Shown here one piece after another: positions 8,902-64,000 of a stretch of DNA of 64,000 nt. The position numbers and the translations under genes are program-made. The notes below the pieces were generated by a model that was not told where the DNA came from, made no database searches, and worked only from the letters and a program-made list of their open reading frames with translations. The DNA lies in assembly GCA_001244265.2 (NCBI GenBank), contig CDLV01000005.1, forward strand, positions 1,736,001-1,800,000, in the 5' to 3' direction. The DNA comes from Microbotryum violaceum. Taxonomy: Eukaryota. The first letter of the stretch is position 1; each line of letters starts with the position of its first letter.

Positions 8902-10965
8902 TAAGCTCAACTAAGCCCTCCCTCGGGAAGGGGCTTAGGACTTATCGGCGCGCCTGGCCCAGTTGCCCTCCGAAATTTCAGGGCCATTTTGGGGTGGTTC
9001 TCTGTAGCGTGGCAAGTACTTACAATGATCCAAAACGCAGAGATGCTATTGATCTTCTACTAGAAAAAATGCCTGTGCGGAACAACAAGAGGATAACCTT
9101 TCTGTAGGCGAAGCTATAATGATCTGAAGTGTGCAGATTTGGTCAATTTGCTCCCGAGTGGTCCGAGCGGCAGCACGCTGCTGCAGCCGCCGGCTTCCGC
9201 ACTTCGGCGTGTGCGCATCGGTTTCTCTCCCGTCCCATTCCGCATCACTCGTCTTCTCGGTACTATGCTCTTCGCTTGTTCTCGGTGGAACACCGCGCTT
9301 ATCTCAGAATGACGCGCAACCGCAGACGCTATGACTCGACGACTCGCCAGGATCGCCGCCGTCAGGCGGATCTATTCGCTCGGTTTCGGTTTCATAAGCT
9401 CTCACTATGTCAACACCTCTCGTGGTATTTCAGCCCATCAACACAACACGGTGGTGTTCACAAGCATAAGCCAAAGCTCTTCAACAGTAATTGGACAGAC
9501 ATAGCTCAAGCATGTACTTGATCTCATCATACAACTCGCCCGCGAAGATGGCCCAGACGCACGAGGCCGAATCAATAATTGGATTGCCAACCAGGTGGGT
9601 AACCCTCCAGCATATCAGATCAGGATACAAGACCGCGGCAAGGCCTCTTAAACACTTGCGTCATACCTGTACAATCTGACTCAATCATTGTGAAAGAGAT
9701 GAAACGAACCAAATCCGCCTTCGTCTTCAGCCACGACATTGCTCCCGAAGTCTTTGCATCTGATCAGATTGACGCACGCCTTGACGCAATAGTCGAAAGC
9801 AACTCTTTCATCACTGGACGCATCCGCAACCTCTTGTCTCACTGCGGAGACCCACCACCAGTCGAAGAATCAAACTGCGACAAACTCAGCTCGGATTCTA
9901 CGGACGTTGACATGGAGGACGCTCAAGAGGATAGCTCTGGGTCGGATGCAGAACGGGGGTGTTTCAAGAAGCGACATATATCATTTGTGCGTAATTATTG
10001 CCTGAGCTCAGCCCCTTGGTCAAAGTCAAATTGATGATGGCGTTTATTGACTTGCCGCAGCTTTGTCGCTCGATAATGGGTCAGATCGCCTTCGCGTGTA
10101 ACCGAAGAAATAATGCTATGCAGCATCGTAACGGTCTCATGGCTCTCTCGCATGTGGAGCGAACGATCGGTTGACGACGTTGGCTTGAAATATCAAGCTC
10201 CTCCCTGAACCCGTTGGAGCAATCACGAACACAGCGTCTTACTGATTTCGAGTCTTGAACCGCTCGAGCTGAAAAAGTCCGGCGAGAGCTTCGATTTGCA
10301 CCGGCCGCGGGACGAAGTCCTCGCCAAATTTGTCGACCAAGAGTAGTCTGAGCTTCTTGCGTAACTCAATCGGGTCAACTCGATCTTCCTGAGTCAATTG
10401 TGATTTCCAGTGAGCAGCCCGAGAACGAGGGATAGGCAGTTCGGGGGTTGTGTTGGTTGATTGATGGTCCCTCGATGTCGTTGGCTTTGCCCTCGAAGCT
10501 GATCGTAAGGGCGACTCTCTGAACTCAATCGATGGAAACCGACGAGGTGCGCCCTTGACAGATGTGGCGTTTGTACGGGCATGGTGGATCATCAGGGCGG
10601 TAGCGACGTCGTGCACTGGCGTTGTGGACCGAAGGTGAGACCGGTGAGGCCCGGCTGGCTGATTCACGTCGGCGCGAAGAACCGTCCCTCTGGGTCCGTG
10701 CGCGAGCCAGCTCCAAGTCGAAAATAACGACTTCTCACCGCTGTAGCTCAATGAATAGGATTCCCAAGAGTCTTCCCTTAGGGTATATGCTCGAAAAAAT
10801 AGCATAAGAGTAACCCTTTTGCAACGATTGTATAGGTTATTTTTATTTGCCATGCTACAGCAAGGTGGTACTTTTCTGGGCCAAATTTCGATAGGCAACT
10901 TAGCAAAACGCGCGGATAAGGTACAAGCGCACAAGCCCCCCACAGAGTGGAGGGTTTCGAGCTTA
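8902..10965. mobile_element. Internally deleted AcademH-like DNA transposon (~2.06 kb)
   Basis: Perfect 9-bp direct flank GCGTCGACC at 8893-8901 and 10966-10974; termini TAAGCTC...GAGCTTA; diverged inverted repeats ~8902-9050 vs ~10800-10965; RecQ-like helicase start on the minus strand inside. Confidence 0.72.
10262..10400 (-). pseudogene. Truncated SF2/RecQ-like helicase N-terminus (Q-motif region)
   Basis: LRKKLRLLLVDKFGEDFVPRPVQIEALAGLFQ resembles the F.PRp.Q.eA segment preceding Walker A; no Walker A follows. Confidence 0.5.
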
Positions 10966-12147
10966 GCGTCGACCGGTCGACCGCTACGGCGGCGCGTTGC
11001 CAAGCGAGGCCGAATCGACTTGCCACGAGTCGCGAGCTCGGACGCTCACCACTCCTAACTTCAAGCTCACAAGGTTCACGACCTAATCAAAATCAAAGCC
11101 GTACCTTCTTCTATTTCTTATCCCTTCCTGACAACTCTCTCTGTGCTCTACGGCTCCGTCTTCCTTCCCTACGATCGTCGATCGAGGCCCTGCACCTGGA
11201 TATACGCACGCCCGCTGGCTCTCTCTCTCTCTTTGCGACCTCGACCCGCGATGCGCCAACCCCTCGTCACATACCTGGCTATATACATAAGCGCGCTAAA
11301 AAGTGGCGCGCGCGGCGCGCCTTCGACCCTCGCTTCCGCGCGGCGTAGCCATACATGTTGCCCGCCTGCAACCCGGGTTGCTGGGCGGCCCCAGGACTAA
11401 GGCAACTTGCTAATAAGATTGACCTATTATTAGGGAGTACTTGTGCAATCGCCCACAGTGCTGTCTCTTCTAGCCTCCCCCCGCTCAGCGCAAAATCAGA
11501 CCCGCGTCAGTTCTAACACGAGCATCAACTATTGTAACACACAGTAACACATTCTCGAATCAATCTACGACATTTGTATCAGACAATGGGCAGGCATAAA
11601 TGGAATCGCTTCAAGTTCTGACCTGACAGGCTACTTCGAGGGACATCCTGACTATAAGCCCCGAGGCCTTCGTTCGGACGCTCGAATCCGCACCAACATC
11701 CCCGGAACCCGGCACATGGTTACGTACACTGCGCGCCAAATTCAGCAAAAAACCTTTGATGAACATGCTCGTGGCGAAGCTAGCTCTCCGTCTCCTCGGC
11801 CTCCAATGGCCCCTCCGATACAGGCCGATTTCGACGAAGCCGCCAACCCGAGTGGGATGGATTGGGATGATGAACGTCACAGCGAGTACGGTGGTGGCCA
11901 TGAAAGCGACTTTAGTCCGGCCCCATATTTTTCGGATCGAACATCCCGTATGCCAATCGCGCCTGACTATCTTGCAACCGCCGAGCGATTATCATTGGCT
12001 GATCTGCGCCAAGTCGAAAGTTTCGAACCAGCCACACGTGGTCAGTCGAAGAAAGAAACGTACAAGCAGTTTGTGTTCAACGACGCTCGTCTAAGGAGCT
12101 TGGAACGGCCAGCGCTTCTGCGTCAGTATATTGCGTTTTGCGCTGGG

Positions 12148-13030
<883 letters not shown>

Positions 13031-13315
13031 TCAATTCACCAGTTAGGCAATGACCGTCTCGAGTTTTCCGTGAGCGTGTGTAGCCATCTAGCTTGTATGT
13101 TATGTCAATGGAGATCCTGCATTGCAACCATGATTCACCCCGAGGGTACAACGCACTCCGAAGGCGGAAATTCTTGTTCAATTTTTAACCTTAGGGCAGG
13201 GCGTAGATACACTACAACAGAGTCCCGCGCCTCCAGAAATGAGGAAGAGGTATGCGACGACATGCTTCATCAATTCTAGGACACTTTTAACAAGCACTGT
13301 ACAACCGGCGTGGCG

Positions 13316-13995
13316 ATGTGTACCCGCCGGAGGTACACACGACCGGTGCCCTCTCCAGCTGTGTACCCCTGGGGTTCCACGGCTCAGGCGCGGTCCGTCG
13401 CCGCCGACGGCCTTGCTGACTGCACTACAACAAACTTCCACGCCCCCGTTCAAAGCTCAGGATGTGTCTGGGGTTACGGAATGAAATAACCTCTTGCGAC
13501 GAGACCGACGAAAAATTTGTTTGCTACATCCGACTTGCACTCTGAAAAGCCCGCAAGGCCAACGCACTTCCCTAGCTGAATTCTTCGTTCGAATCAGCCT
13601 CCGAGCAGAGCAGAGCGAAACTGCACTACAACGAACTTCCACGCACCCGCTCAAAGCCCAGGATGTGTCTGAAATTACCGAAAGGATTCACTTCCCGCCG
13701 TTGGAGACTCGTATATGTTATTATACAGTGATCTGCCACCGGTGACCGACTTTGCACCCCCGGGGGTACACAAGGCGCAAGCGGGAAAGCGCCTGTGTAC
13801 TCCCGGGGGCACGCAGGACTGGTCCACTCTTCCGCTGTGTACTCCCGGTAATGATCACACCCCGCGCGCCGAATGACTGTGTACCCCCGGGAGTACACAG
13901 CTTTGTCGGCGGCACAGGCCGGGTCCCTCGGGGTTACACTCTTGTACTCTTGTCGCGCGCCGACTCTGTGTATGTGTACCCCCGGGAGTACACAG
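13316..13995. repeat. Array of ~24-bp palindromes (consensus CTGTGTACYCCCGGGRGTACACAG) with ~42-bp period
   Basis: Copies at 13316, 13359, 13750, 13793, 13835, 13877, 13919 (degenerate) and 13972; mostly 18-19 bp spacers within each run. Confidence 0.85.
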
Positions 13996-14525
13996 CCCCT
14001 ACAAGGTCCTTGGCCGATGGACCGATATCCCTGCTCACTCGACTACATAAACTATCACGTCAACGGAGTAGGTATGCGGTGACGTATTTCATTGATTTTT
14101 GCTGACATGTTATCGCAAGCACTGTACAACGGAGCGCCGTTGCACGCGTCTGGACCCATGCTTTGGGGTGCTGTTGGAACCGAACAACTACAGCAACACC
14201 AATCCTCACCGCCCCCCGCCTCCCTCTGGCAACGTTCCCAAACCTGAACCTGCAGATGTCAGCACCGATGCGCACCAAATTTTAGTCTTTAACTTAGCAG
14301 AACCTTCAAGCTTGTCACGTACTGCAGTTCGGTGAGTGTGGCGGTGGCGACCGGCTCGTGGGATCGTGGTCGTCAACGCGTCAACGCCTGATTAAGGCTG
14401 ACATTCATTTTACTTTTGTGCACTGGCGTACATTTCCACCATGTGCGATATGGGCCGCATACAAAAAGCAAAGTCCTTCAATAACAAATAATCTACAGTC
14501 AACAAATGCGCCAAACCATCACTAG

Positions 14526-15170
14526 CTAGCCCATGGGCTCGTCGAGAATCTCGAGGTCGTCCGAGTCTTCAACGCTTGTCAGCCCGACTCTCCGTCGCCC
14601 TCCCCGAGCTCAGCATCATCTTCTTCCTCGACCTCGTGCTCCGATCGTGAACCCAAAACTTCTTCCACTCGTCTTTCATACACATCATCGCGGTCTCGCT
14701 GGGCATGCTCCGCGGCTGGATCGGGGGTCAGGCCAAGTTCCCTTCGGAATGCGTCGAGGTCGATGGTTGTGGCGCACGTCCACGGCAGAAGGACCTGATG
14801 AGCGGCGGCTCGACTCAGTGACGAGGCTCTGTATTTGAGTATTATTCAGCGTCGAAAGGCGGCGACCGAAATGACGTGGACTACCGCGCGACCGGCGCAA
14901 CACCTGTTTCGCCCGTCCGGCGAAAACTCCTCCGATCAAACCGAATGCCGTGGGCCGCGATTCATGAACTGCGGGTAAACGGGTAAACGCATTCTGAACC
15001 AGACAACCGAGAGATCATCGCATTCGGCGAGCCGATCCAGACGCTCTTTGACCAAAATCTGCCGGCGTTGAAGCACATACCACACCGCAGTGCCAACCTC
15101 GCCCGCGGGTGGAAGCGGCAAACGCTGACGCGTTGCTGGGAGCAGACAGGAGAGGCAACACATCGTATGG
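14526..15170 (-). pseudogene. Unknown accessory gene with acidic C-terminus inside the KDZ element (convergent orientation)
   Basis: VLQRRQILVKERLDRLAECDDLSVVWFRMRLP..., VLLPWTCATTIDLDAFRRELGL...EEEDDAELGEG, acidic tail VEDSDDLEILDEPMG* after an apparent frameshift. Confidence 0.4.
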
Positions 15171-16500
15171 TCGGTGGGCTTCGATTCAAGATATACGACA
15201 GAAAGCGTGAGGGAACAGAAAGTAGTAAGACCAGGACCGTGATCGATAGCGGCGCGTCAAGCGGCAATGCTGTTGCTCGCTCGCGCTCAGGCTCGCTACG
15301 GCTGGTCTACCAGCGTGGTGAGACGGCACGTGACTTAACCACGTCCATCAATGCTACCTTATCCCCACCGCTAATGAGGTAATGATGTAATGATGTTCTA
15401 ATCGAGCTTCTTCTCGCTACTAATCTAAAGAAGATTTTGACGGTGAGTTTTCCGAATATGCTTTATACAGAATGGCAGCATTTATAAGATTGGATTACCC
15501 CGATACGAGCTCGCACGTACATGAGATGAACGTGTTGAAGGCCACACCAGCCTCCGTGTTGCGCTAGTCCTCGCGCCATCCAGCAACCCGGGTTACAGGC
15601 GGGCAACATGTATGGCTACGCCGCGCGGAAGCGAGGGTCGGAGGCGCGCTGCGCGCGCCACTTTTTAGCGTGCTTATATATATATAGCCAGAGGTGCGTC
15701 ATTTACGCCATCGCGAGAGCAGGCGCCTTTGCGACCTCCTCCGCAGCCTCAAGACAACACGGCTGGTCGTAAGTCGATCCTATTCAAGCCTGTCAAGTTA
15801 ACACCAACAGAACCCACTGACAGCGGCCTCCTCAACTCATAGATGGATCCGCCCCGTTCTCCTCAACGAGTGCATGTGCGTTGCAGCAACACGCGCGCGC
15901 GCCACCGACAGGCTCGCAGGACGGCTCCTGAGCGCGACGCGCCTACCTGCGGGTGGTGCTCTCCCGACCTCAGCGGCTTGACTCGGCGCAAAAAAACTGA
16001 TCCTCCCAAAACGCTGCGTTGTTGAATTCCAGGAAATGTCGATGGCCGTGTCAACACCGACCCGAAGGGTTTGCCCACAGTCGCAACAGCGCGTACGTAA
16101 TCATATTCAACGACCAGAGAAAGGAGACTCGAAACTGACCTACTTTCTCCTCCTTTATGTCCGATAGTGAAATCAAGCGCTGTCTCGCAAATAACTGCGC
16201 CATCGATGATACAGGGCTGAACGCTTGTTCTAGGTTGGACCAAGCCACGTTGTGTGTCAGGCAAGGGTGCCCATCAGGACATCACTTGGACTATCTTAAC
16301 GTCACGTGAGTTCCTTCGACGACAGGCGACAAAGGCGGTTGGGTTGGACTGCGTTGGGTTGAAACTCCTCGCTGATGCGAAGATGTATGGGTTCCCATAG
16401 ATGCAACTATCAAAAATGACATTGCGCCTGAGCAAACGCTTCTAGACCTCCTTGCATGACTCTCGTCGACGCGTCTAACTCTAGGGGTCAGACTAAGGGG

Positions 16501-36560: not shown

Positions 36561-38109
36561 GCCTCCAAGCCCCCCGCACCTGTTGTGAACCCAGTGCTTT
36601 GATGATCGACCGACCACCCCTACGACGACGAGAATTCGGGGGACCGGACTCAAGGATGGATCGAACCAACATACGCCTCGCTCCCTTTGTGGATCGTTCT
36701 CTCCCTCCAGGCCTCCCTCTTCCCCACCTTTTTTGATATCTCTGACGAAACCTCCCCCGAAACCCCTTTTTCCCCTTTCTTAGGCGTTGCCCTTACCTTA
36801 CCCCCTCATCGCGGCTTTCTCCCCTCTTCTTTCTGCCGTCTCTCTGTGTCGTCCCCTCTTCCCTGTGTGTGACGTGTGCCAGTGATTGTGTGCTATTTGA
36901 TGAACTTTCCTCTCTCCCTCTTCTCTACTTCCTCGTCAGAGGCGTAGGTACTAGGCTGCAGTAAAGAGATCGAGTCATGGACAATGAATGGACCCGGAGG
37001 TTATTGCCCCTGGATTGCCCCTTACTGAGGGGTTCGGGTGAATATTTGTTGATAAGAAGAAAGTGTGAAATCGCGTGTTCATTCTCAGGCGAATAGGCAT
37101 TTTTTGCAATCAGTCCCTTTATACCGAAGCACATTCAGACGATGAGTGACACGGTAAGGTTGGGCGAAAATTAAGTGGGCCGGAGGGGTCACCGGTTGGT
37201 GACGCGTGACATTCGAGAAAGCTCTCGTGCCTCTCAATCGAGAGATTGATACACTACCGAACATTTTTTTGGGGGTGGAGAACTAAGGGTTTTTTGTGTT
37301 TTTTTTTTGAAAAAGAAAGGAGAGGAAAAAAAAGGAGAGAAGAAAAAAAGAAAACAAAAGTTACCGCATTACGAGGTTCATTTCAAAAAAAAAAAAAAAA
37401 ACCCCGGAGGAGACGATTCATTGATTGGGGGGGTACATCAGAAGGAAGGGGGGGGGGGCGCGTCGCTGACCATCCGAAGATGCTCCGCTACCAGGGGGTT
37501 GATCGTAGTCTAATATGGGATGGAGGATCCAAGTACGACGTCGTTGCGGTGGTGGATTTGGCCATCGAGGGGTCGGAACCGGGCGGCGATGCAAGGCAGG
37601 GGCCTGCACGCAGGCCTGTACCTTCGATTCCAGCGCCACATGCTGGTTACCGTAGGGACTCGGACAGGTGCGACTTTTTGTCGTAGGACATCAAGCACAT
37701 CGGAGGGGTCGGCTTTGCCTTTGGCGTCAGCGTTGAGGTTCAGGCCTGTCGTCGGTCAAGCGGCCACCGGCCCCCCAAGGGAGAAGAAACAAAGGAGAAG
37801 GGGTCAGCGCGCGCTTTTCGCTCCGGGCAGGCGATTGAAGATCGCGACCGCCGGACCCGCGGGCAGCCTAGCCGAGTGCACTAGGTCCGGGATGCCTACC
37901 CACAGTTCAGCAGGAACTGATTACATGGTCCCCCATGGCTACGCGCAACCCATGTACTACCGCAGTGACGCGTGCTGTAGCAGTGGGGAGCGAGCGGCCG
38001 GCGACGCGGCAGGGCAGGCGTCAATACGTCAGTGTCGTCGGTGGCTCCCTCGTCGCGTGAGCAGGGGCCCGCGTGCGATGCGACATGGTCGACGCGACGA
38101 TGTAGGCAA

Positions 38110-38304
38110 CTTACCGTTTTCTGGCGCGGCACCGGCCTCGGTAATGAGCTGGTCGTATCGGCGGATATCCCCGACAAAGTCGCTGTCACACAGCAGTAGC
38201 TCGAAGAGAGCGGTTGCCCAGTATGAGTTGCCGAGATTAGGGAGGCCGATCAGTAACCGCAGGTCGACTTCACGGGGCGCACGAGTACGTTCGTTGCGTG
38301 CCAT
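38110..38304 (-). pseudogene. USP (peptidase C19) Cys-box-like relic
   Basis: LLIGLPNLGNSYWATALFELL resembles the GLxNxGNxCY/W box, with Tyr at the catalytic Cys position; ends at a GTAAGT donor. Confidence 0.45.
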
Positions 38305-38376
38305 AGGGTGGTGAGCTCACAGCTTGACGATTGGAGAGAGCTTGATCCGAGTGGATACAAGTGGCGTTGGACCGTA

Positions 38377-38967
38377 GAGTGGGGTTAACCAGTCGAGGGC
38401 AAGGTGCGGAGCGAGAGAGGGTGCGGCACTAGAAAATGGCGAGGCCAGGGAGCGGTCTCCTGAGTGGAGATCTCCCAATTAGAGTCCCCAACCTCTGGCC
38501 GCCGTGCATATCGTTCGGGCTTGCCAAACTTTAGCTCATCACGAGATCTTAAGTCGATATAATTCTCGCTGTTCGCAGTCATATAAGGGTCGTTTTCGGT
38601 TCAATACAGCCGCGAAAAGAGGGAGATATGAACTTCATGGAAAAAAGAAAACAATGCAATACAATACGTGGCTTCAGTTTCAGGCGTCTGAAGCCACGGA
38701 CTGTAACACACTTTTTCTTTTGCTGTTTTTCTTTGAAAAGCAACGAAGTAAATCGACGTCATTCGAGAATCTCAGGGGAACTAAAATTTTGCAGGGCCGA
38801 ACGATGCGCACGGCCGCCCGAGCGCCAGAGGGCTGAGGCTCTAATTGGGAGATCTCCACTCAGATCTCCACTCAGGAGACCGCTCTCTGGCCTCGCCGTT
38901 TTCGAGTGCCGCACCCTCTCTCGCTCCACACCTTGCCCTCGACTAGCTCGACTGCTTAACCCCACTC
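38377..38967. mobile_element. MITE/fold-back element (~590 bp) with long TIRs
   Basis: GAGTGGGGTTAA...TTAACCCCACTC termini; outer ~110 bp strongly complementary, weaker complementarity to ~190 bp; AT-rich non-coding core. Confidence 0.75.
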
Positions 38968-39383
38968 CTTTAAGCTCACTGTCCAGCGTGGGGAAGGGGG
39001 CAGGGGGAAAAGCTTGGGCCTGACCAAGACTGGTTTAGAGTTGCCATTTATCTTCGTTCTAAGCGTGATACACGAGACCTGAAAGGAATAGAAATATAAA
39101 CATTCCTCAAATATAAGCGTGCATACCCTGAGAACCACGCACAAGCCACGATTGATCAATCCGCCTCCGGTTCGACTGCGCAGCAACACTCTGTACGTCG
39201 AAAGGGTGCGGTGGTTTGTTACCCTGGGCCGCCTTGGCTCCCAGAAGCCTCCGCCCCCTAATTTTCGCCCACCCTCACCGTGCCGTGTCGCTCATGGTCT
39301 AAAGGTGCTTCGGTATGTAAAAAGATGACTGAGTGATCGTACGAATGGCCTACTCGCCAGGCAGTAAAAAGTCACCTTCAATT

Positions 39384-39466
39384 TGGACGAACGGGGAATC
39401 GAACCCCGGACCTTTCGCAGCCACGAAAATGCGAAGCGAACATTATACCAACTAAACCATCCGCCC
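39384..39466 (-). tRNA. tRNA-Ala(CGC) with 10-nt intron
   Basis: GGGCGGA/TTCGTCC acceptor stem with G3:U70, TTCGC/GCGAA anticodon stem, CGC anticodon, GGTTCGATTCC B-box, downstream T5 terminator. Confidence 0.93.
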
Positions 39467-43262: not shown

Positions 43263-44504
43263 AACATGTTTTACTCTTCAATCTAACCAGTTACTCTGAC
43301 TAGTCGGAAAAAATGCAGCCCTGCGGGCGGCCTGTTGTGGATGCACCAGCACACTGTTGTGGATGCCGCACCTGCCTGTGGTGTCCATGTTCCGATCAGA
43401 AGTCACGTACAAGCTCTGTGGCAAGTTTGTATTTTTCGCGCCAGTCGAACAAAGCTACAGCGTTCCCAGTATTTTCCGTCACTTTTTCGTTGACGTAGAG
43501 CTGTGCGAACACTTATATTGTATTTAATGGACGGCAAGCGCGTGGCTTTGTATGTCATTGCTTCTACAGCAGAGCTCCTCCTGACGGGCGGTGTGAGGGC
43601 GTGAAAGGCACGAGATCGCTCTCGAGCCTCACTGATTCCGAGTCCAAACAGAAAGGATCAAACGGTGTAATTCGCAGGCGAAGAAAGACTGCTAAAAGGA
43701 CTAAGGTCAAGAGACTCGGCGGCGCCGCGCGCGAGGGCAAGCGTGAGGCCGCAGAGCGCAGAGGTTGGCTCGAGGTCGTGGTGAGGCGTAAGCGGAGCGG
43801 CGCCTTACACTGGCGTCTGTCACGTGATGCGGCCAGGGAGGGCCATCGCAACCTCGCCAAGTCTTGGCCGCGACGAGTGAGTAATAGTCTCTCTGCTGTC
43901 TTTCGTCACTATACCGTTCGATTCTCCTGCTGTTTGGAATCCCATTAATTTTAACGGTCTTAATCCCGTAAATTAACGGGATCCCACTGGTCTAGGATAG
44001 CACGAATGATGCGTTCGTGCACTAGACTCAGGATATGCTCAAGATTGATGGTGGTATAGCCTTGTGAATGGATACCTACGAATCACGTCTCGAGTCGCAG
44101 AGCAAAACTAGAGTTATAAAGACCAGTCCACAGCAGAGGCCGAGGAGCCAGCCTACACGATATTCTTTCTCCTGTGGGGTACTCGTCATTCATTTGCACT
44201 ATACATGCCCCTCTACGAAGCACACAGGCACATACGCACACAATGCACACATGCACACATGCACACACACACGCACCTAGACCCCTTTCGATCCCACTGC
44301 ACCGAGCGAAAGCCCGTGATCGTGTCCCTTCCTCGGGTCCGGGACCGACTGACGTCTCCTCGCCTCCTTCCTATCCAGGATCTCGGTCTTGCTCTACGGC
44401 TTGGTGTACGAAGGATATTCTGCATATAACACTTTTGCTTGCATCAGTTCTCGAGTGGATGCCGTTGCGCACTTCACGAGGAAGGAGAATCAAGGATGAC
44501 TGAC

Positions 44505-44730
44505 CGTCGCGCCCGGGCACATGCCCGTAGCGACGATGCCATTCCATCAAAGATGCTCCCACTGTCACACGGATTGCGACATGAGCTTGATCCTCGACAA
44601 TGCGCGTAAAGCCGAGCGTATAACCGGTACCGCTGAGCGTCTTCGCCACGATGCCTCCTTGATAGGTGATCGTCATGACATCCTTGTCATCTTCCCATCC
44701 GCACTTGGCTCCCGATTTGAATAGAGGCGA
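44505..44730 (-). mobile_element. Copia pol fragment (pre-integrase region), near-identical to ~47190-47385
   Basis: [24 protein letters not shown]...[10 protein letters not shown]. Confidence 0.85.
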
Positions 44731-46218: not shown

Positions 46219-48838
<2,620 letters not shown>

Positions 48839-60473: not shown

Positions 60474-63400
60474 CACCTCTGGCTATATATATAAGCACGC
60501 TAAACAGTGGCGCGCGCAGCGCGCCTCCGACCCTCGCTTCCGCACGACGTAGCCATACATGTTGCCCCCCCTGCAACCCGGGTTGCTGGATGGCCCGAGG
60601 ACTAGGGCAACCTGCTAATGAGATTGACCTATTATTAGGGAGTACTTGTGCAGTCGCCCGCAGAGCTGTCTCTTCCAGCCTCCTCCCGCTCAGCGCCAAA
60701 TCAGACCCGCCTCAGTTCTAAGACGAGCACCAACTATTGTAACACACAGTAATACATTCTCGAATTTGTATCAGACAATGGGCAGGCATAAATGGAATCG
60801 CTTCAAGTTCTGACCTGACAGGCTACTTCGAGGGACATCCTGACTATAAGCCCGAGGCCTTCGTTCGGACGCTCGAATCCGCACCAACATCCCCGGAACC
60901 CGGCACATGGTTACGTACACTGCGCGCCAAATTCAGCAAAAAACCTTTGATGAACATGCTCGTGGCGAAGCTAGCTCTCCGTCTCCTCGGCCTCCAATGG
61001 CCCCTCCGATACAGGCCGATTTCGACGAAGCCGCCAACCCGAGTGGGATGGATTGGGATGATGAACGTCACAGCGAGTACGGTGGTGGCCATGAAAGCGA
61101 CTTTAGTCCGGCCCCATACTTTTCGGATCGAACATCCCGTATGCCAATCGCGCCTGACTATATTGCAACCGCCGAGCGATTATCATTGGCTGATCTGCGC
61201 CAAGTCGAAAGTTTCGAACCAGCCACACGTGGTCAGTCGAAGAAAGAAACGTACAAGCAGTTTGTGTTCAACGACGCTCGTCTAAGGAGCTTGGAACGGC
61301 CAGCGCTTCTGCGCCAGTATATTGCGTTTTGCGCTGGGGTCAAAGGTCATCTACGGCCCTTGATTGACGTGGACGAGGAGCTGTGCCAGGGTTCGGTCGC
61401 TAGCGAAGTGCCGCCGCCTTGTTCATGCGAGAGCCCCCTCACATTACTGCTTGACGTGTACGACCTCATAAGCCGTATGTGAATAAGGCAAGTTGGGTCA
61501 CTGTGTCGAATAACGCGCTACAAGGTCGAATCGATGCAGTGGTCGAGGTACCGATCGCTTTTTGTCCGAGATCCAGCAGCGATAGCCCATGCCTTACGTA
61601 CGCCGAGCGCCTTGCTCAGATCGGAATGATCGGATCGACCGCAGCTGCTCCTCGCTCTGCCTTCACCTTTCGACTTGTACAATTTCTCGACTCCTGGTGG
61701 AGCACCGCGCCGTTTCCTGTTGATGGAGCAGCTCGCGGGCTCGACATTTTCTATGAGCAAACTGGATGGGGTCGGCCGGGCCTGAGTCAGCATAAATTCG
61801 TGAGCTCGACCCCTGTCATGGTTGCTATTGATCATTATCTGATATTTATCATCGTTCGCGCAGGACAAGGAGCTGCGAAAGCAACTCCAGCGCGCCCTTG
61901 ACGAATTTCGGGCTCTCACGACATCCGAGCGAGAATTGGGCGACCTCGTCCTCGGTGTCGCGGGTTCTCTCTCGGATAAGTGTCCAGCATGCTACGGATC
62001 GACGCGTCTAAATCAAGCCCACCATAGAGTCGAAGTGCAGCATCTTGTCGCTCTGGATGGCAACTTCCAACATTCTCGCGACACCTCAGCCAAATACGAT
62101 TTTCAGGAGTCGACGCCAGCCCTCTTCATCGGCGAAGGCGAGCTCGAATCGACGAAGGAGATCTGTGATGGTGGCGACAGCAAGAAGTCAGAAAAGGTCC
62201 GTTGATCCGAGCCGCCCCCTGCGATCCTTTCAACGCGCTGACGCCCTTCCTCTCGCGTCTTGAAGGCCTGTGCCGATTCGTGGAAAGCGGCCAACGGCGG
62301 TGCGACACAAATATCGCGGGGCAAGTCCGATACGGGCCTAGTTGCCTGTGTTTGCCGTCACGACATCGCGTTGAAGATGGTCAATTTGTATCAATCAGGC
62401 GAAAAGTTCGTCAGCTCAGCTCCTCTTTCAACCGCTTACAAGGCCTGACGCTCGATTTTGATGAGGCAGGCGCTACTACGGCTTATCGCTGCTGCAACAT
62501 ATTTCGAACCAACTCCCTTCCAACGATACACTCGGAGTGCTGTATGATGTTGCGTGTAATTTGGACGGCTACATGCAATCGGTCAGGAAGAGTGGCGGAT
62601 CCGTCGTTTCTTAGATTTCTGGCCCTGGGGCGCCGCTGACCTGTACTGTACTTCGATCGCCTGCAGAGAAGTATCCTTCCCGATCTGTTTCCGAGATTGA
62701 AGTTTGCCACGAGCGTGTTTCATGCTTTTGCTCATCAATGGCCCTGCCAGCTTGAGTACAACCCGCGCCTGATTCAGCACTTTGGGTTGACGGCTGGGGA
62801 GGGATGCGAACGCGTTTGGAGTCAGCTCCGATCGCTCATCCCGATCAATCGTCCTGCGAGCGCTTCTCACCGGCGCGTCAACATCTCGCGTCGCATCGAC
62901 CTGGTGTTGACAGCCTCGGTATGCTCTGCCATCCACACTTTCACGCCGTGTTCGTTACTTAATTGTGCGGTCCCTTCATTCATCGTCCATTCCAGGCCGT
63001 TGGTTCCGCAGACGACTGTCGAATGCTCATGATCAGCTTGGAAGGGCACAAACTGATCTGAGTAACGTTTCGGCAATATGGTCCGAGTCTGACCTTCTCG
63101 CGCAATGGGATTTACGACGAGCTGCTCAAGCGGCCACAACGGCGGGTCAACGTCGGGAGAACGAGGACAAGGAGCGATTAGAGCTTTTTAACATTGTACA
63201 GAGGCTACACCACGTGGAAGAAAGGCTGTACGTTCGGCGCGTCAAACCCCATTGGAGGACGAGGGCGTAAAATTGACACTGTGTCTTGGCATTGTGTGTT
63301 CAGATTCGATCCAACGGCTTCCGATGAAGCGAAGGCTCGCTTGCAGCAACAGCTAAGAGCTTACCAACAAGAATACGATCGCACGAAGGAGCTTGCAGCT

Positions 63401-64000
63401 TCAGGTGCGGCGCGCGTCCTATCTTTATGAGTATCGCCACCTGATGTTTGATGTCCCATGACATACCTAGATTTCCAGCATTTGTGCAACTGCGTAGTCA
63501 AACTTCGCACATTACACAAAGCGACGGTCCAATTGCAATGCTGTCAAGAACGAATTGACTCAATGGGTCGGGGACGAAGCGGCGCGACAATCGGTCAAGT
63601 CGAAGGCAGCAAGCTTGTCAGCGTCTCACAGACGCACAGCAAGAAAGTAAAAGTGGCAATCGATATGTACAATAAAGCGGTCGGGGATTACCGAAATGCT
63701 GCGACCGAGCAATCGGCCCAGATTCTGGACAACTTACCGCTCGCTACCACAATTAAGTCGCTTGCGACTCTGTCGCCAACGGACGCTTTCTGACAAGACG
63801 GTTTTTTCGTACACGACACTGCGCCTTGGGCGATTGATACCGATGTTCAGAAAGGGATCAAGGCGGTTTTACTCAAAGCCAGGGCGGAAGAAGAGATTCT
63901 CCGGATCGGAGCTGAGGTTCGACAACTACTTGCGTGGCTCGAAGATGAGGATACTCGCTTTGTTAGGGTATCTCAGGCATGGGCAGAGGACCGAGGTGAG
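60474..64000 (+). mobile_element. KDZ-family DNA transposon, left end and transposase (runs off the window)
   Basis: Left TIR 60474-~60611 matches the TIRs of the 11270-15696 element; KDZ transposase follows. Confidence 0.88.
60907..64000 (+). pseudogene. CxC1-KDZ transposase with nonsense mutation
   Basis: CxC-like PPPCSC..FCP..C..L..G..P..AFTFRL; CPAC; ALDGNFQH; CADSWKA; GLVACVCRHD; YDVACNL; VFHAFAHQWPCQLEYNPR; GEGCERVWS; in-frame TGA at 63791-63793. Confidence 0.85.

What the first reader, a model, noticed from the sequence alone, without database searches (positions are those of the whole stretch)
13316..13995. Repeat-spacer array of 24-bp palindromes with ~42-bp period inside a KDZ transposon
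Seen: at least 8 copies of CTGTGTACYCCCGGGRGTACACAG, a near-perfect palindrome. One run of five (13750, 13793, 13835, 13877, 13919) and one run of two (13316, 13359) are spaced 42-43 bp apart with different 18-19 bp spacers (GGCGCAAGCGGGAAAGCGC, GACTGGTCCACTCTTCCG, ACCCCGCGCGCCGAATGA, CTTTGTCGGCGGCACAGG). A further copy lies at 13972 and a weak one near 13134. The array is non-coding and lies between two convergent unknown ORFs, far from the TIRs. Inference: conserved hairpins with fixed-length variable spacers suggest either a phased binding array (42 bp is about 4 helical turns) for an element-encoded dimeric protein, as anti-silencing arrays do in some plant transposons, or an RNA processed into hairpin-plus-spacer units. 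Caveats: several copies are degenerate, and two spacers (13341-13358 and 13817-13834) are related, so part of the array arose by duplication. No Cas-like gene is present.
Basis: partly seen in the sequence, partly recalled or inferred. Interest (0 to 1): 0.8.

Follow-up and report, generated by a model that had tools for sequence, protein, structure and literature searches.

The report
Phased palindrome array in KDZ transposons
Behind the transposase gene of a fungal jumping gene sits a row of evenly spaced DNA palindromes that looks like a docking strip for one of the element's own proteins rather than a CRISPR-like memory, and distant relatives carry similar rows with other motifs.

Summary
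The array is real: seven credible copies of a loop-less 24-bp palindrome plus two weak ones, at 41-43-bp steps, far beyond chance. It lies between the 3' ends of a KDZ transposase and a companion gene (weak BED-finger and HMG-box leads) in a rearranged, multi-copy Microbotryum element; the two 'unknown ORFs' are remnants of these genes. A CRISPR-like or processed-RNA reading is not supported: spacers are unchanged across collapsed copies, two pairs are paralogous, no compensatory changes, no strand bias. It is not a plain minisatellite either (palindromes 74% alike, spacers 32-34%). New here: all 3 distant KDZ loci with sequence behind the transposase (2 families) carry their own palindrome-like motif arrays at about 21 and 31 bp, so the three families sit near 2, 3 and 4 helical turns. 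Phasing beyond simple duplication is only suggestive, and Kyakuja end arrays are not in phase. Best reading: a binding-site array for an element-encoded protein, akin to Spm/VANDAL motif clusters; binding is not shown. Earlier scan notes describe KDZ copies in this genome but no such array.

The parts
11265..11269 (.). candidate target-site duplication, left (CGTCA; 6 of 8 if read as 8 bp)
   Evidence: same 5 bases at 15697-15701; exact length uncertain because the left terminus is altered
11270..11406 (+). left terminal inverted repeat of the KDZ element
   Evidence: 90% over 134 nt to 15558-15691; 95% to the copy at 60479
11632..12148 (+). 5' remnant of the KDZ transposase (about residues 15-190)
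   Evidence: tblastn of full-length transposases; identity with the 60474 copy stops at 12148; loose end at 12148 continues into transposase
12149..13017 (+). 3' half of the companion gene (about 450 aa when intact, Microbotryum only); weak HMG-box lead near 12653-12832; its N-terminal BED-like finger is missing in this copy
13130..13153 (.). weak palindrome copy (16/24)
13316..13382 (.). left run: two palindromes (13316 with a 1-nt insertion, 13359) and an 18-nt spacer
13413..13695 (+). two copies of a module 201 bp apart; a further tandem copy exists in some genomic copies
   Evidence: 87% over 63 nt; joint 13581 back to 13419 in run X6 and loose end at 13682 in X15
13750..13995 (.). right run: palindromes at 13750, 13793, 13835, 13877, 13918 (weak), 13972
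   Evidence: one contig with 2 other letters and no gap spans 13646-14039 in run X1
14070..14130 (+). module paralogous to 13248-13305, shaped like a short GT..AG intron plus exon start
   Evidence: 74% over 61 nt; splice signals read from the sequence; splicing not shown
14332..14468 (+). GT..AG intron of a probable + strand RNA, antisense to the transposase 3' end
   Evidence: joint 14287 to 14468 with 14 letters between in run X19 (RNA is a guess), absent from X1, X6, X15; first AG after a GCTGAC branch-like site (sequence)
14526..15107 (-). 3' remnant of the KDZ transposase (last about 200 residues, frameshifted)
   Evidence: 6 hits of 6462 candidates, all PF18758 proteins; tblastn; loose end at 15107
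15114..15557 (.). segment that adjoins the right TIR; continues inward into other sequence in other copies
   Evidence: loose ends before 15114 in X1, X6, X15
15558..15696 (-). right terminal inverted repeat, terminus 5'-CACCTC on the - strand
   Evidence: reads diverge behind 15696-15697
60474..64000 (+). second copy of the family with CxC1 and KDZ domains; cut by the window end before the place where its array would lie
   Evidence: Pfam CxC1 E 7e-5, KDZ E 4e-21

Best explanation
The array is a cis-acting strip of DNA binding sites of a KDZ transposon. Each loop-less palindrome is a site for a dimeric, element-encoded protein (the transposase or the companion protein); sites multiplied by tandem and block duplication, the motif was kept while the DNA between drifted, and spacing near whole helical turns puts bound proteins on one face of the DNA, for cooperative loading in transposition or in self-activation and anti-silencing. 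Shown: the array, its place, differential conservation, presence in an intact copy, analogous arrays in two other KDZ families. Inferred: protein binding, the identity of the binder, selection on phase, and the function.
For: Loop-less dyad with the same position tolerated on either arm and no compensatory change; palindromes 0.74 alike against 0.32-0.34 for spacers, 15 pairs each; steps of 43, 42, 42 and 95 from 13877 to 13972 (9.05 turns of 10.5). Of 6 metagenome KDZ loci (6 of 301 candidate stretches), the 3 with sequence behind the transposase all carry motif arrays there: L006 and L009 (one family, 88% identical) CAGTNGWCNACTG at about 31 bp, L008 AWWTCCWGGAWWT at about 21 bp; best period 10.26-10.32 with automatically called sites; three base periods within 0.7 bp of 2, 3 and 4 turns (chance about 0.002, tolerance set after the fact). 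L006 and L009 drop from 88% to about 66-80% patchy identity in the array while keeping motif and period. Both CTGTGTAC hits in the supplement text of PMC12730594 fall in Dileera-2_MLP, which also begins CACCTC. Companion protein has weak BED-finger (0.86) and HMG-box leads. Array kept in a derivative that lost most of both genes.
Against: No binding or functional data. Off-lattice intervals are in phase in 9 of 11 hand-picked cases (P 0.0008) but only 4-5 of 8 automatically called ones (P 0.02-0.17); a 21- or 31-bp repeat gives a 10.3 peak by itself. Kyakuja end arrays in Table S1 show steps of about 29-38 bp counted by eye, not whole turns. One diverged copy lost a palindrome with a net 49 nt, which breaks phase. 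The array motif is no more like the TIR than background. In the one clear duplicated block the spacer diverged no more than the palindromes. BED and HMG leads are below significance and fold searches were inconclusive. Only two outside families, of unknown host.
Confidence: 0.55

Rival explanations
1. Functionless, old variable tandem repeat in the 3' intergenic DNA: palindromes seed slippage, fold-back and gene conversion, which keeps them alike; periods near whole turns are chance or a by-product of how repeats form.
For: Nested duplications at several scales, copy-number change of the 201-bp module and an out-of-phase unit loss, a recent perfect 41-bp tandem run in L008, equal divergence in one paralogous block, weak automated phase test.
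Against: Tandem Repeats Finder finds no 42-bp array; most spacers are unrelated while motifs stay alike; same place and same design in three families with different motifs.
Confidence: 0.22
2. The palindromes are upstream sites for a host transcription factor that drives a spliced non-coding RNA antisense to the transposase 3' end, a self-restraint or small-RNA source.
For: In run X19 (RNA guessed) a contig begins at 13876 and a GT..AG joint at 14332-14468 lies on the + strand; KDZ1 of Cryptococcus has an annotated antisense ncRNA over its transposase (PMC11343200, passages); the gene model there has no conserved frame.
Against: Contigs give no strand, start or level; one run only; family-specific motifs in other KDZ loci fit an element-encoded reader better than one host factor. 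Not exclusive of the best explanation.
Confidence: 0.13
3. The array is transcribed and cut into hairpin-plus-spacer guide RNAs of about 42 nt (CRISPR-like).
For: Repeat-spacer look; strong folding on both strands (z -4.7 and -5.8, 0 of 100 shuffles), as any palindrome array would give.
Against: No loop, no compensation, no strand bias; spacers unchanged in collapsed copies, partly paralogous, one is itself a short palindrome with the same outer arms (12 of 17); no spacer match in the window beyond chance (2 hits at 4 mismatches for 5 spacers, shuffled mean 0.5-0.8 each); no Rfam family above threshold; the neighbours are transposase and companion gene.
Confidence: 0.04
4. The phased motifs act on chromatin directly (nucleosome positioning or exclusion, DNA bending) without a sequence-specific reader.
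For: Best period in the outside arrays is 10.3 bp, close to the nucleosomal repeat (recalled).
Against: Long, family-specific palindromes are more information than positioning signals need; the Microbotryum step is 42 bp with unrelated spacers.
Confidence: 0.06

Closest known systems
Spm/CACTA subterminal motif clusters bound by TnpA (bioRxiv 10.64898/2026.08.24.746577, abstract and passages; tail-to-tail 12-bp dimers of maize En/Spm recalled)
   Different: Other superfamily; here the cluster is internal, behind the transposase stop, with near-constant spacing; binding not shown.
VANDAL/VANC anti-silencing target arrays (PMC5735166, passages)
   Same: Short motifs amplified by tandem duplication in non-coding and intergenic parts, differing between families, beside an accessory gene.
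   Different: VANC motifs are 8-9 bp, same orientation, not palindromic; 'periodic' does not occur in that text; no VANC homology found for the companion; no demethylation data.
Cryptococcus KDZ1-3 (Dileera clade; PMC11343200 and 10.1101/2025.05.19.654958, passages)
   Same: KDZ plus CxC1 transposase, TIRs of 139-241 bp, 4-8-bp TSDs, extra ORFs, an antisense ncRNA over the transposase.
   Different: No internal array is mentioned in the passages seen; their DNA could not be examined.
Dileera and Kyakuja consensus ends (PMC12730594, Table S1, first 400 nt of each only)
   Same: Clusters of short, partly palindromic motifs with variable spacers near the 5' ends; Dileera-2_MLP shares the CACCTC start and CTGTGTAC.
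   Different: Terminal, not internal; Kyakuja steps of about 29-38 bp by eye; the paper does not discuss them ('subterminal' 0, 'tandem repeat' 0).
CRISPR array
   Same: Similar repeat length, fixed-length dissimilar spacers.
   Different: Repeats 58-96% alike, loop-less, spacers 18 nt, static and partly paralogous, no cas gene, eukaryotic transposon.

Membership tests
KDZ superfamily (host element) | KDZ transposase domain | tested here: met
   PF18758 in the 60474 copy and in full-length relatives of the remnants; deleted from the 11270-15696 copy itself
KDZ superfamily (host element) | CxC zinc cluster before the core | tested here: met
   CxC1 E 7e-5, below the curated cut-off
KDZ superfamily (host element) | Defined ends with TSD of 4-8 bp | tested here: inconclusive
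   TIR of about 130 bp clear; 5 bp exact flank repeat, 6 of 8 if 8 bp
Dileera clade | Placement in the transposase tree | not tested
   no reference sequences held; CxC1, long TIRs and CACC start agree with Dileera in PMC11343200 and PMC12730594
CRISPR array | Near-identical direct repeats | tested here: not met
   pairwise 0.58-0.96, mean 0.74
CRISPR array | Unique acquired spacers that vary between copies with polarity | tested here: not met
   one gap-free contig over the right run in X1; paralogous spacers; contigs drop rare variants
CRISPR array | Spacers match foreign DNA | tested here: inconclusive
   only the 64-kb window searched, no excess; no whole genome held
CRISPR array | cas genes nearby | tested here: not met
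   both neighbours identified as KDZ genes; no Cas family among 20 element fragments scanned with Pfam; rest of window not scanned
Simple minisatellite | Head-to-tail units alike over their whole length | tested here: not met
   no 42-bp array by TRF; spacers near random identity
Spm-type subterminal binding repeats | Subterminal position | tested here: not met
   about 2 kb from the left and 1.6 kb from the right TIR; in L008 the array runs to within about 200 bp of the contig end, element end not proven
Spm-type subterminal binding repeats | Bound by an element-encoded protein | not testable with these tools
   needs EMSA, DAP-seq or ChIP
VANC-type anti-silencing array | Dense family-specific motif in non-coding DNA made by tandem duplication | tested here: met
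VANC-type anti-silencing array | Accessory protein binds the motif and removes methylation | not testable with these tools
   no methylome or binding data
HMG-box protein (companion C-terminus) | HMG profile or fold match | tested here: inconclusive
   paralog P0070: Pfam HMG_box_2 E 0.059; of its 2 PDB hits one is UBF HMG box 3 (E 0.6), the other 2cto (HMG-like, recalled; E 0.37); fold searches on a pLDDT-50 model unclear
BED zinc finger (companion N-terminus) | Profile match to Cx2C..Hx3-4H finger | tested here: inconclusive
   pattern visible; Atlas 0.86, lead only; no Pfam hit

The most novel reading that the evidence does not exclude
KDZ transposons in general carry a family-specific, helically phased palindrome array behind the transposase, read by a protein of the same element (here a BED-finger/HMG-like companion; in the L004-L006 family possibly linked to a TET/JBP-like gene), forming a wrapped nucleoprotein platform that lets each family recognise and unsilence its own copies: a fungal counterpart of VANC with a geometric code of 2, 3 or 4 turns.
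Probability: 0.2. Interest if true: 0.8.

Novelty: new variant of a known kind. Interest (0 to 1): 0.55.

Why it matters
KDZ elements are large, active fungal transposons whose cis-requirements and accessory genes are unexplained. A defined motif, repeated in phase and different in each family, gives a direct probe for which protein recognises the element and how it escapes silencing, including how TET/JBP cargo might be aimed. It would also be a simple marker for finding and classifying KDZ families. It is not a eukaryotic CRISPR.

Tried and rejected
No whole genome held, so other copies were seen only through contigs of 4 of 24 listed runs (tables were cut: 362 substitutions, 82 indels, 58 loose ends and 512 pieces not shown) and through gene models. 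No listed holder is on record as RNA; in X19 the bin 13171-13337 had no cover and 13338-13838 little, which shows nothing by itself. X15 behaves like DNA. Rfam: one sub-threshold mir-187 match. Nested CACTA element: the CACTACAAC motif occurs 3 times, all on one strand, no inverted partner: rejected. TIR palindrome as the source of the motif: alignment scores 13-15 against background mean 14.3: rejected. Third gene over the array: 1 hit of 3 candidates, frames differ between copies: rejected as a spurious model. Palindrome in viral contigs: 3 single hits with the same flanks, no array. Two-repeat pattern in prokaryote genomes: 46 hits, about the number expected by my arithmetic (about 39); 1 of 46 reaches 18/24. 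KDZ loci in viral and prokaryote collections: none. Companion structure: pLDDT 40, not searched; paralog model pLDDT 50, no clear fold; alignment profile against PDB sequences: none. Bacterial promoter and terminator scan: none, not apt. Literature: no paper on internal or phased arrays in KDZ elements surfaced in searches (listings only); Iyer et al. 2014 and a second paper asked for by id are not held, and consensus sequences in PMC12730594 are cut at 400 nt, so a prior description is not excluded.

Full report
Observation. The palindromes are there and are not chance. Five sites reach 18/24 against the symmetric form; 100 Markov simulations of the window gave a mean of 0.01. Steps in the right run are 43, 42, 42, 41 and 54 bp. 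The palindromes lie within a 1-kb zone of nested duplications: 13317-13372 with 13794-13848, 13863-13901 with 13954-13996, 13360-13442 with 13973-14059, 13248-13305 with 14070-14130, and a module repeated at 201 bp.

The element. It spans about 11270-15696 with TIRs of about 130 bp and a 5-bp flank repeat. Its first 875 bp match a second copy at 60474 that carries CxC1 and KDZ domains. The right ORF is the last 200 or so residues of the same transposase on the minus strand (6 hits of 6462 candidates, all KDZ proteins of Microbotryum). The left ORF is the 3' half of a companion gene of about 450 aa: 15 hits of 43 candidates, 7 with their own N-terminus and 8 fused to the transposase N-terminus as here. 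All 12 listed M. saponariae companion genes have a transposase within two locus tags. I infer that the intact element is TIR, transposase, array, convergent companion, TIR, and that this copy belongs to a derivative family in which the middle was inverted with deletions at 12148 and 15107-15114; loose ends at these places in three DNA-like runs agree. A gene model between companion and transposase in an intact M. silenes-dioicae copy begins with the translation of the 13972 palindrome, 35 of 36 residues identical, then changes frame: no real gene, but proof that this palindrome is in an intact copy. A profile search of 1.84 billion proteins found 9 relatives of the companion, all named Microbotryum. 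It has a Cx2C..H..H pattern with a BED-finger lead (0.86) and, in paralog P0070, a weak HMG-box signal (Pfam E 0.059; PDB hits UBF box 3 and 2cto at E 0.4-0.6). Fold searches were inconclusive. That KDZ elements often travel with HMG genes is recalled from Iyer et al. 2014, which is not held.

Variation between copies. In run X1 one contig spans 13646-14039 with 2 other letters, no gap, at depth 86 against 9-11 in the flanks; X6 gives 284 against 21 for 13864-14190 (depth is not a strict copy number and contigs drop rare variants). So the spacers are static in the bulk of copies. Variants seen: an extra 201-bp module (X6, X15), a diverged copy lacking the 13793 palindrome and its spacer (net 49 nt, out of phase; X19), and a different sequence after the 13972 palindrome (one contig each in X1 and X6). 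The indel table was cut, so 13 gaps in a 910-nt contig of X15 could not be placed.

DNA site or RNA hairpin. The region folds strongly on both strands, as any palindrome array must, but copies pair with each other. The dyad has no loop; the variable position is T opposite G in one copy and C opposite A in two, never T opposite A; mismatches are 5 G-U and 6 A-C in the six clear ungapped copies (the two weak copies left out). That is the pattern of a double-stranded site with tolerant half-sites, not of a selected stem. Spacers match nothing in the window beyond chance, two pairs are paralogous, and one is a short palindrome with the same outer arms. Against a plain minisatellite: no TRF array and 0.74 against 0.32-0.34 identity. 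In X19, guessed to be RNA, a joint fits a GT..AG intron at 14332-14468 on the + strand, absent from the other three runs, and a contig starts at 13876; an antisense RNA starting near the array is possible, as for KDZ1 (PMC11343200, passages), but contigs cannot show starts or strand.

Relatives. A metagenome scan gave 6 KDZ loci of 301 candidates, 35-55% identical in the core. L004, L005 and L007 end in the transposase and overlap L006 at 99%; they show no array upstream. The 3 loci with downstream DNA all have arrays right behind the transposase: L006 and L009 a 13-bp palindrome at about 31-bp steps, L008 a palindrome-like motif at about 21 bp plus a recent 41-bp tandem run. Between L006 and L009 the array is reshuffled while motif and step persist. 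The three base periods lie within 0.7 bp of 2, 3 and 4 turns (about 0.002 by chance, tolerance chosen afterwards). Intervals that are not multiples of the unit are in phase in 9 of 11 hand-picked cases (which used 13919 and dropped sub-motifs 10 bp upstream) but in 4-5 of 8 automatically called ones (P 0.02-0.17). L005 has a TET/JBP-like HxD stretch upstream, seen by eye, without a Pfam hit. In Table S1 of PMC12730594 (first 400 nt only), many of the 14 Kyakuja rows shown have motif-and-spacer arrays at the 5' end, with steps of about 29-38 bp in the two I counted by eye, not whole turns; both CTGTGTAC hits in that file are in Dileera-2_MLP, which starts CACCTC like this element, a lead picked after the fact. 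The array motif does not resemble the TIR above background.

Mechanism and verdict. Most likely (0.55) the array is a docking strip for a dimeric protein of the element, amplified by duplication and kept by selection. The transposase is the more economical reader, since such arrays occur where this companion is not found; the companion, with two possible DNA-binding parts, is the alternative. It works like Spm TnpA and VANC motif clusters (10.64898/2026.08.24.746577, abstract and passages; PMC5735166, passages) but is not a member: internal position, long palindromes, fixed step, binding untested. Neutral repeat 0.22, host-factor promoter of an antisense RNA 0.13, chromatin positioning 0.06, processed guide RNA 0.04.

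Prior record. Papers seen: PMC12730594 (parts 1-2 of 7, passages, supplement rows cut at 400 nt), PMC11343200, 10.1101/2025.05.19.654958, PMC5735166, PMC5751038 (passages), 10.64898/2026.08.24.746577 (abstract, passages). Searches listed no description of internal or phased arrays in KDZ elements; the founding KDZ and Zisupton papers and full Repbase sequences could not be seen. Earlier scan notes list 7 KDZ-related findings in this genome, none mentioning an array; sequence and word look-ups for the array found none. Interest 0.55: not a eukaryotic CRISPR, but an apparently undescribed, testable design shared by three KDZ families.

Noticed in passing
window 46219-47384 and 44529-44726: Long inverted repeat (393-nt arms, 93%, about 200 nt apart) adjoining a 198-nt direct repeat 2.7 kb upstream; fold-back or LTR-like structure.
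   Followed up: no
window 37121-39466: Nested inverted repeats (38377-38537 with 38778-38967; 37121-37186 with 39248-39316), probably small DNA transposons, next to a tRNA-Ser gene at 39384-39466.
   Followed up: no
window 43603-43665: Matches a 21-residue insert in gene model P0014 of another copy of the element, suggesting a small mobile piece that inserted near the 12148 junction there.
   Followed up: no
window 11365-11384, about 15578-15597, 60570-60589: A CCCGGG-centred palindrome inside each TIR; not more like the array motif than background.
   Followed up: yes
window 11631 and 15640 (run X19): Opposite-strand joint from TIR sequence to 11631, at an AG; may be a transposase transcript that starts inside the TIR and is spliced.
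   Followed up: no
window 13587-13596: A B-box-like GTTCGAATC in the spacer of the 201-bp module, seen by eye; no tRNA called there.
   Followed up: partly
L005:2183-2847: TET/JBP-like fragments (HxD motif) upstream of the CxC1-KDZ gene in the family whose downstream array has a 31-bp step; no Pfam hit.
   Followed up: partly
L008:1853-2248: A young, near-perfect 41-bp tandem run built from two of the 21-bp motif units, in the opposite orientation to the older array behind it.
   Followed up: partly
window 9603-11045: Fragmentary ORFs left of the element, one with a helicase-like stretch by eye; possibly another decayed element that the KDZ copy inserted into.
   Followed up: no
proteins P0060, P0061, P0062, P0070: Diverged paralogs of the companion (32-57% identity) point to further Microbotryum KDZ families whose arrays could test motif and protein co-evolution.
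   Followed up: partly
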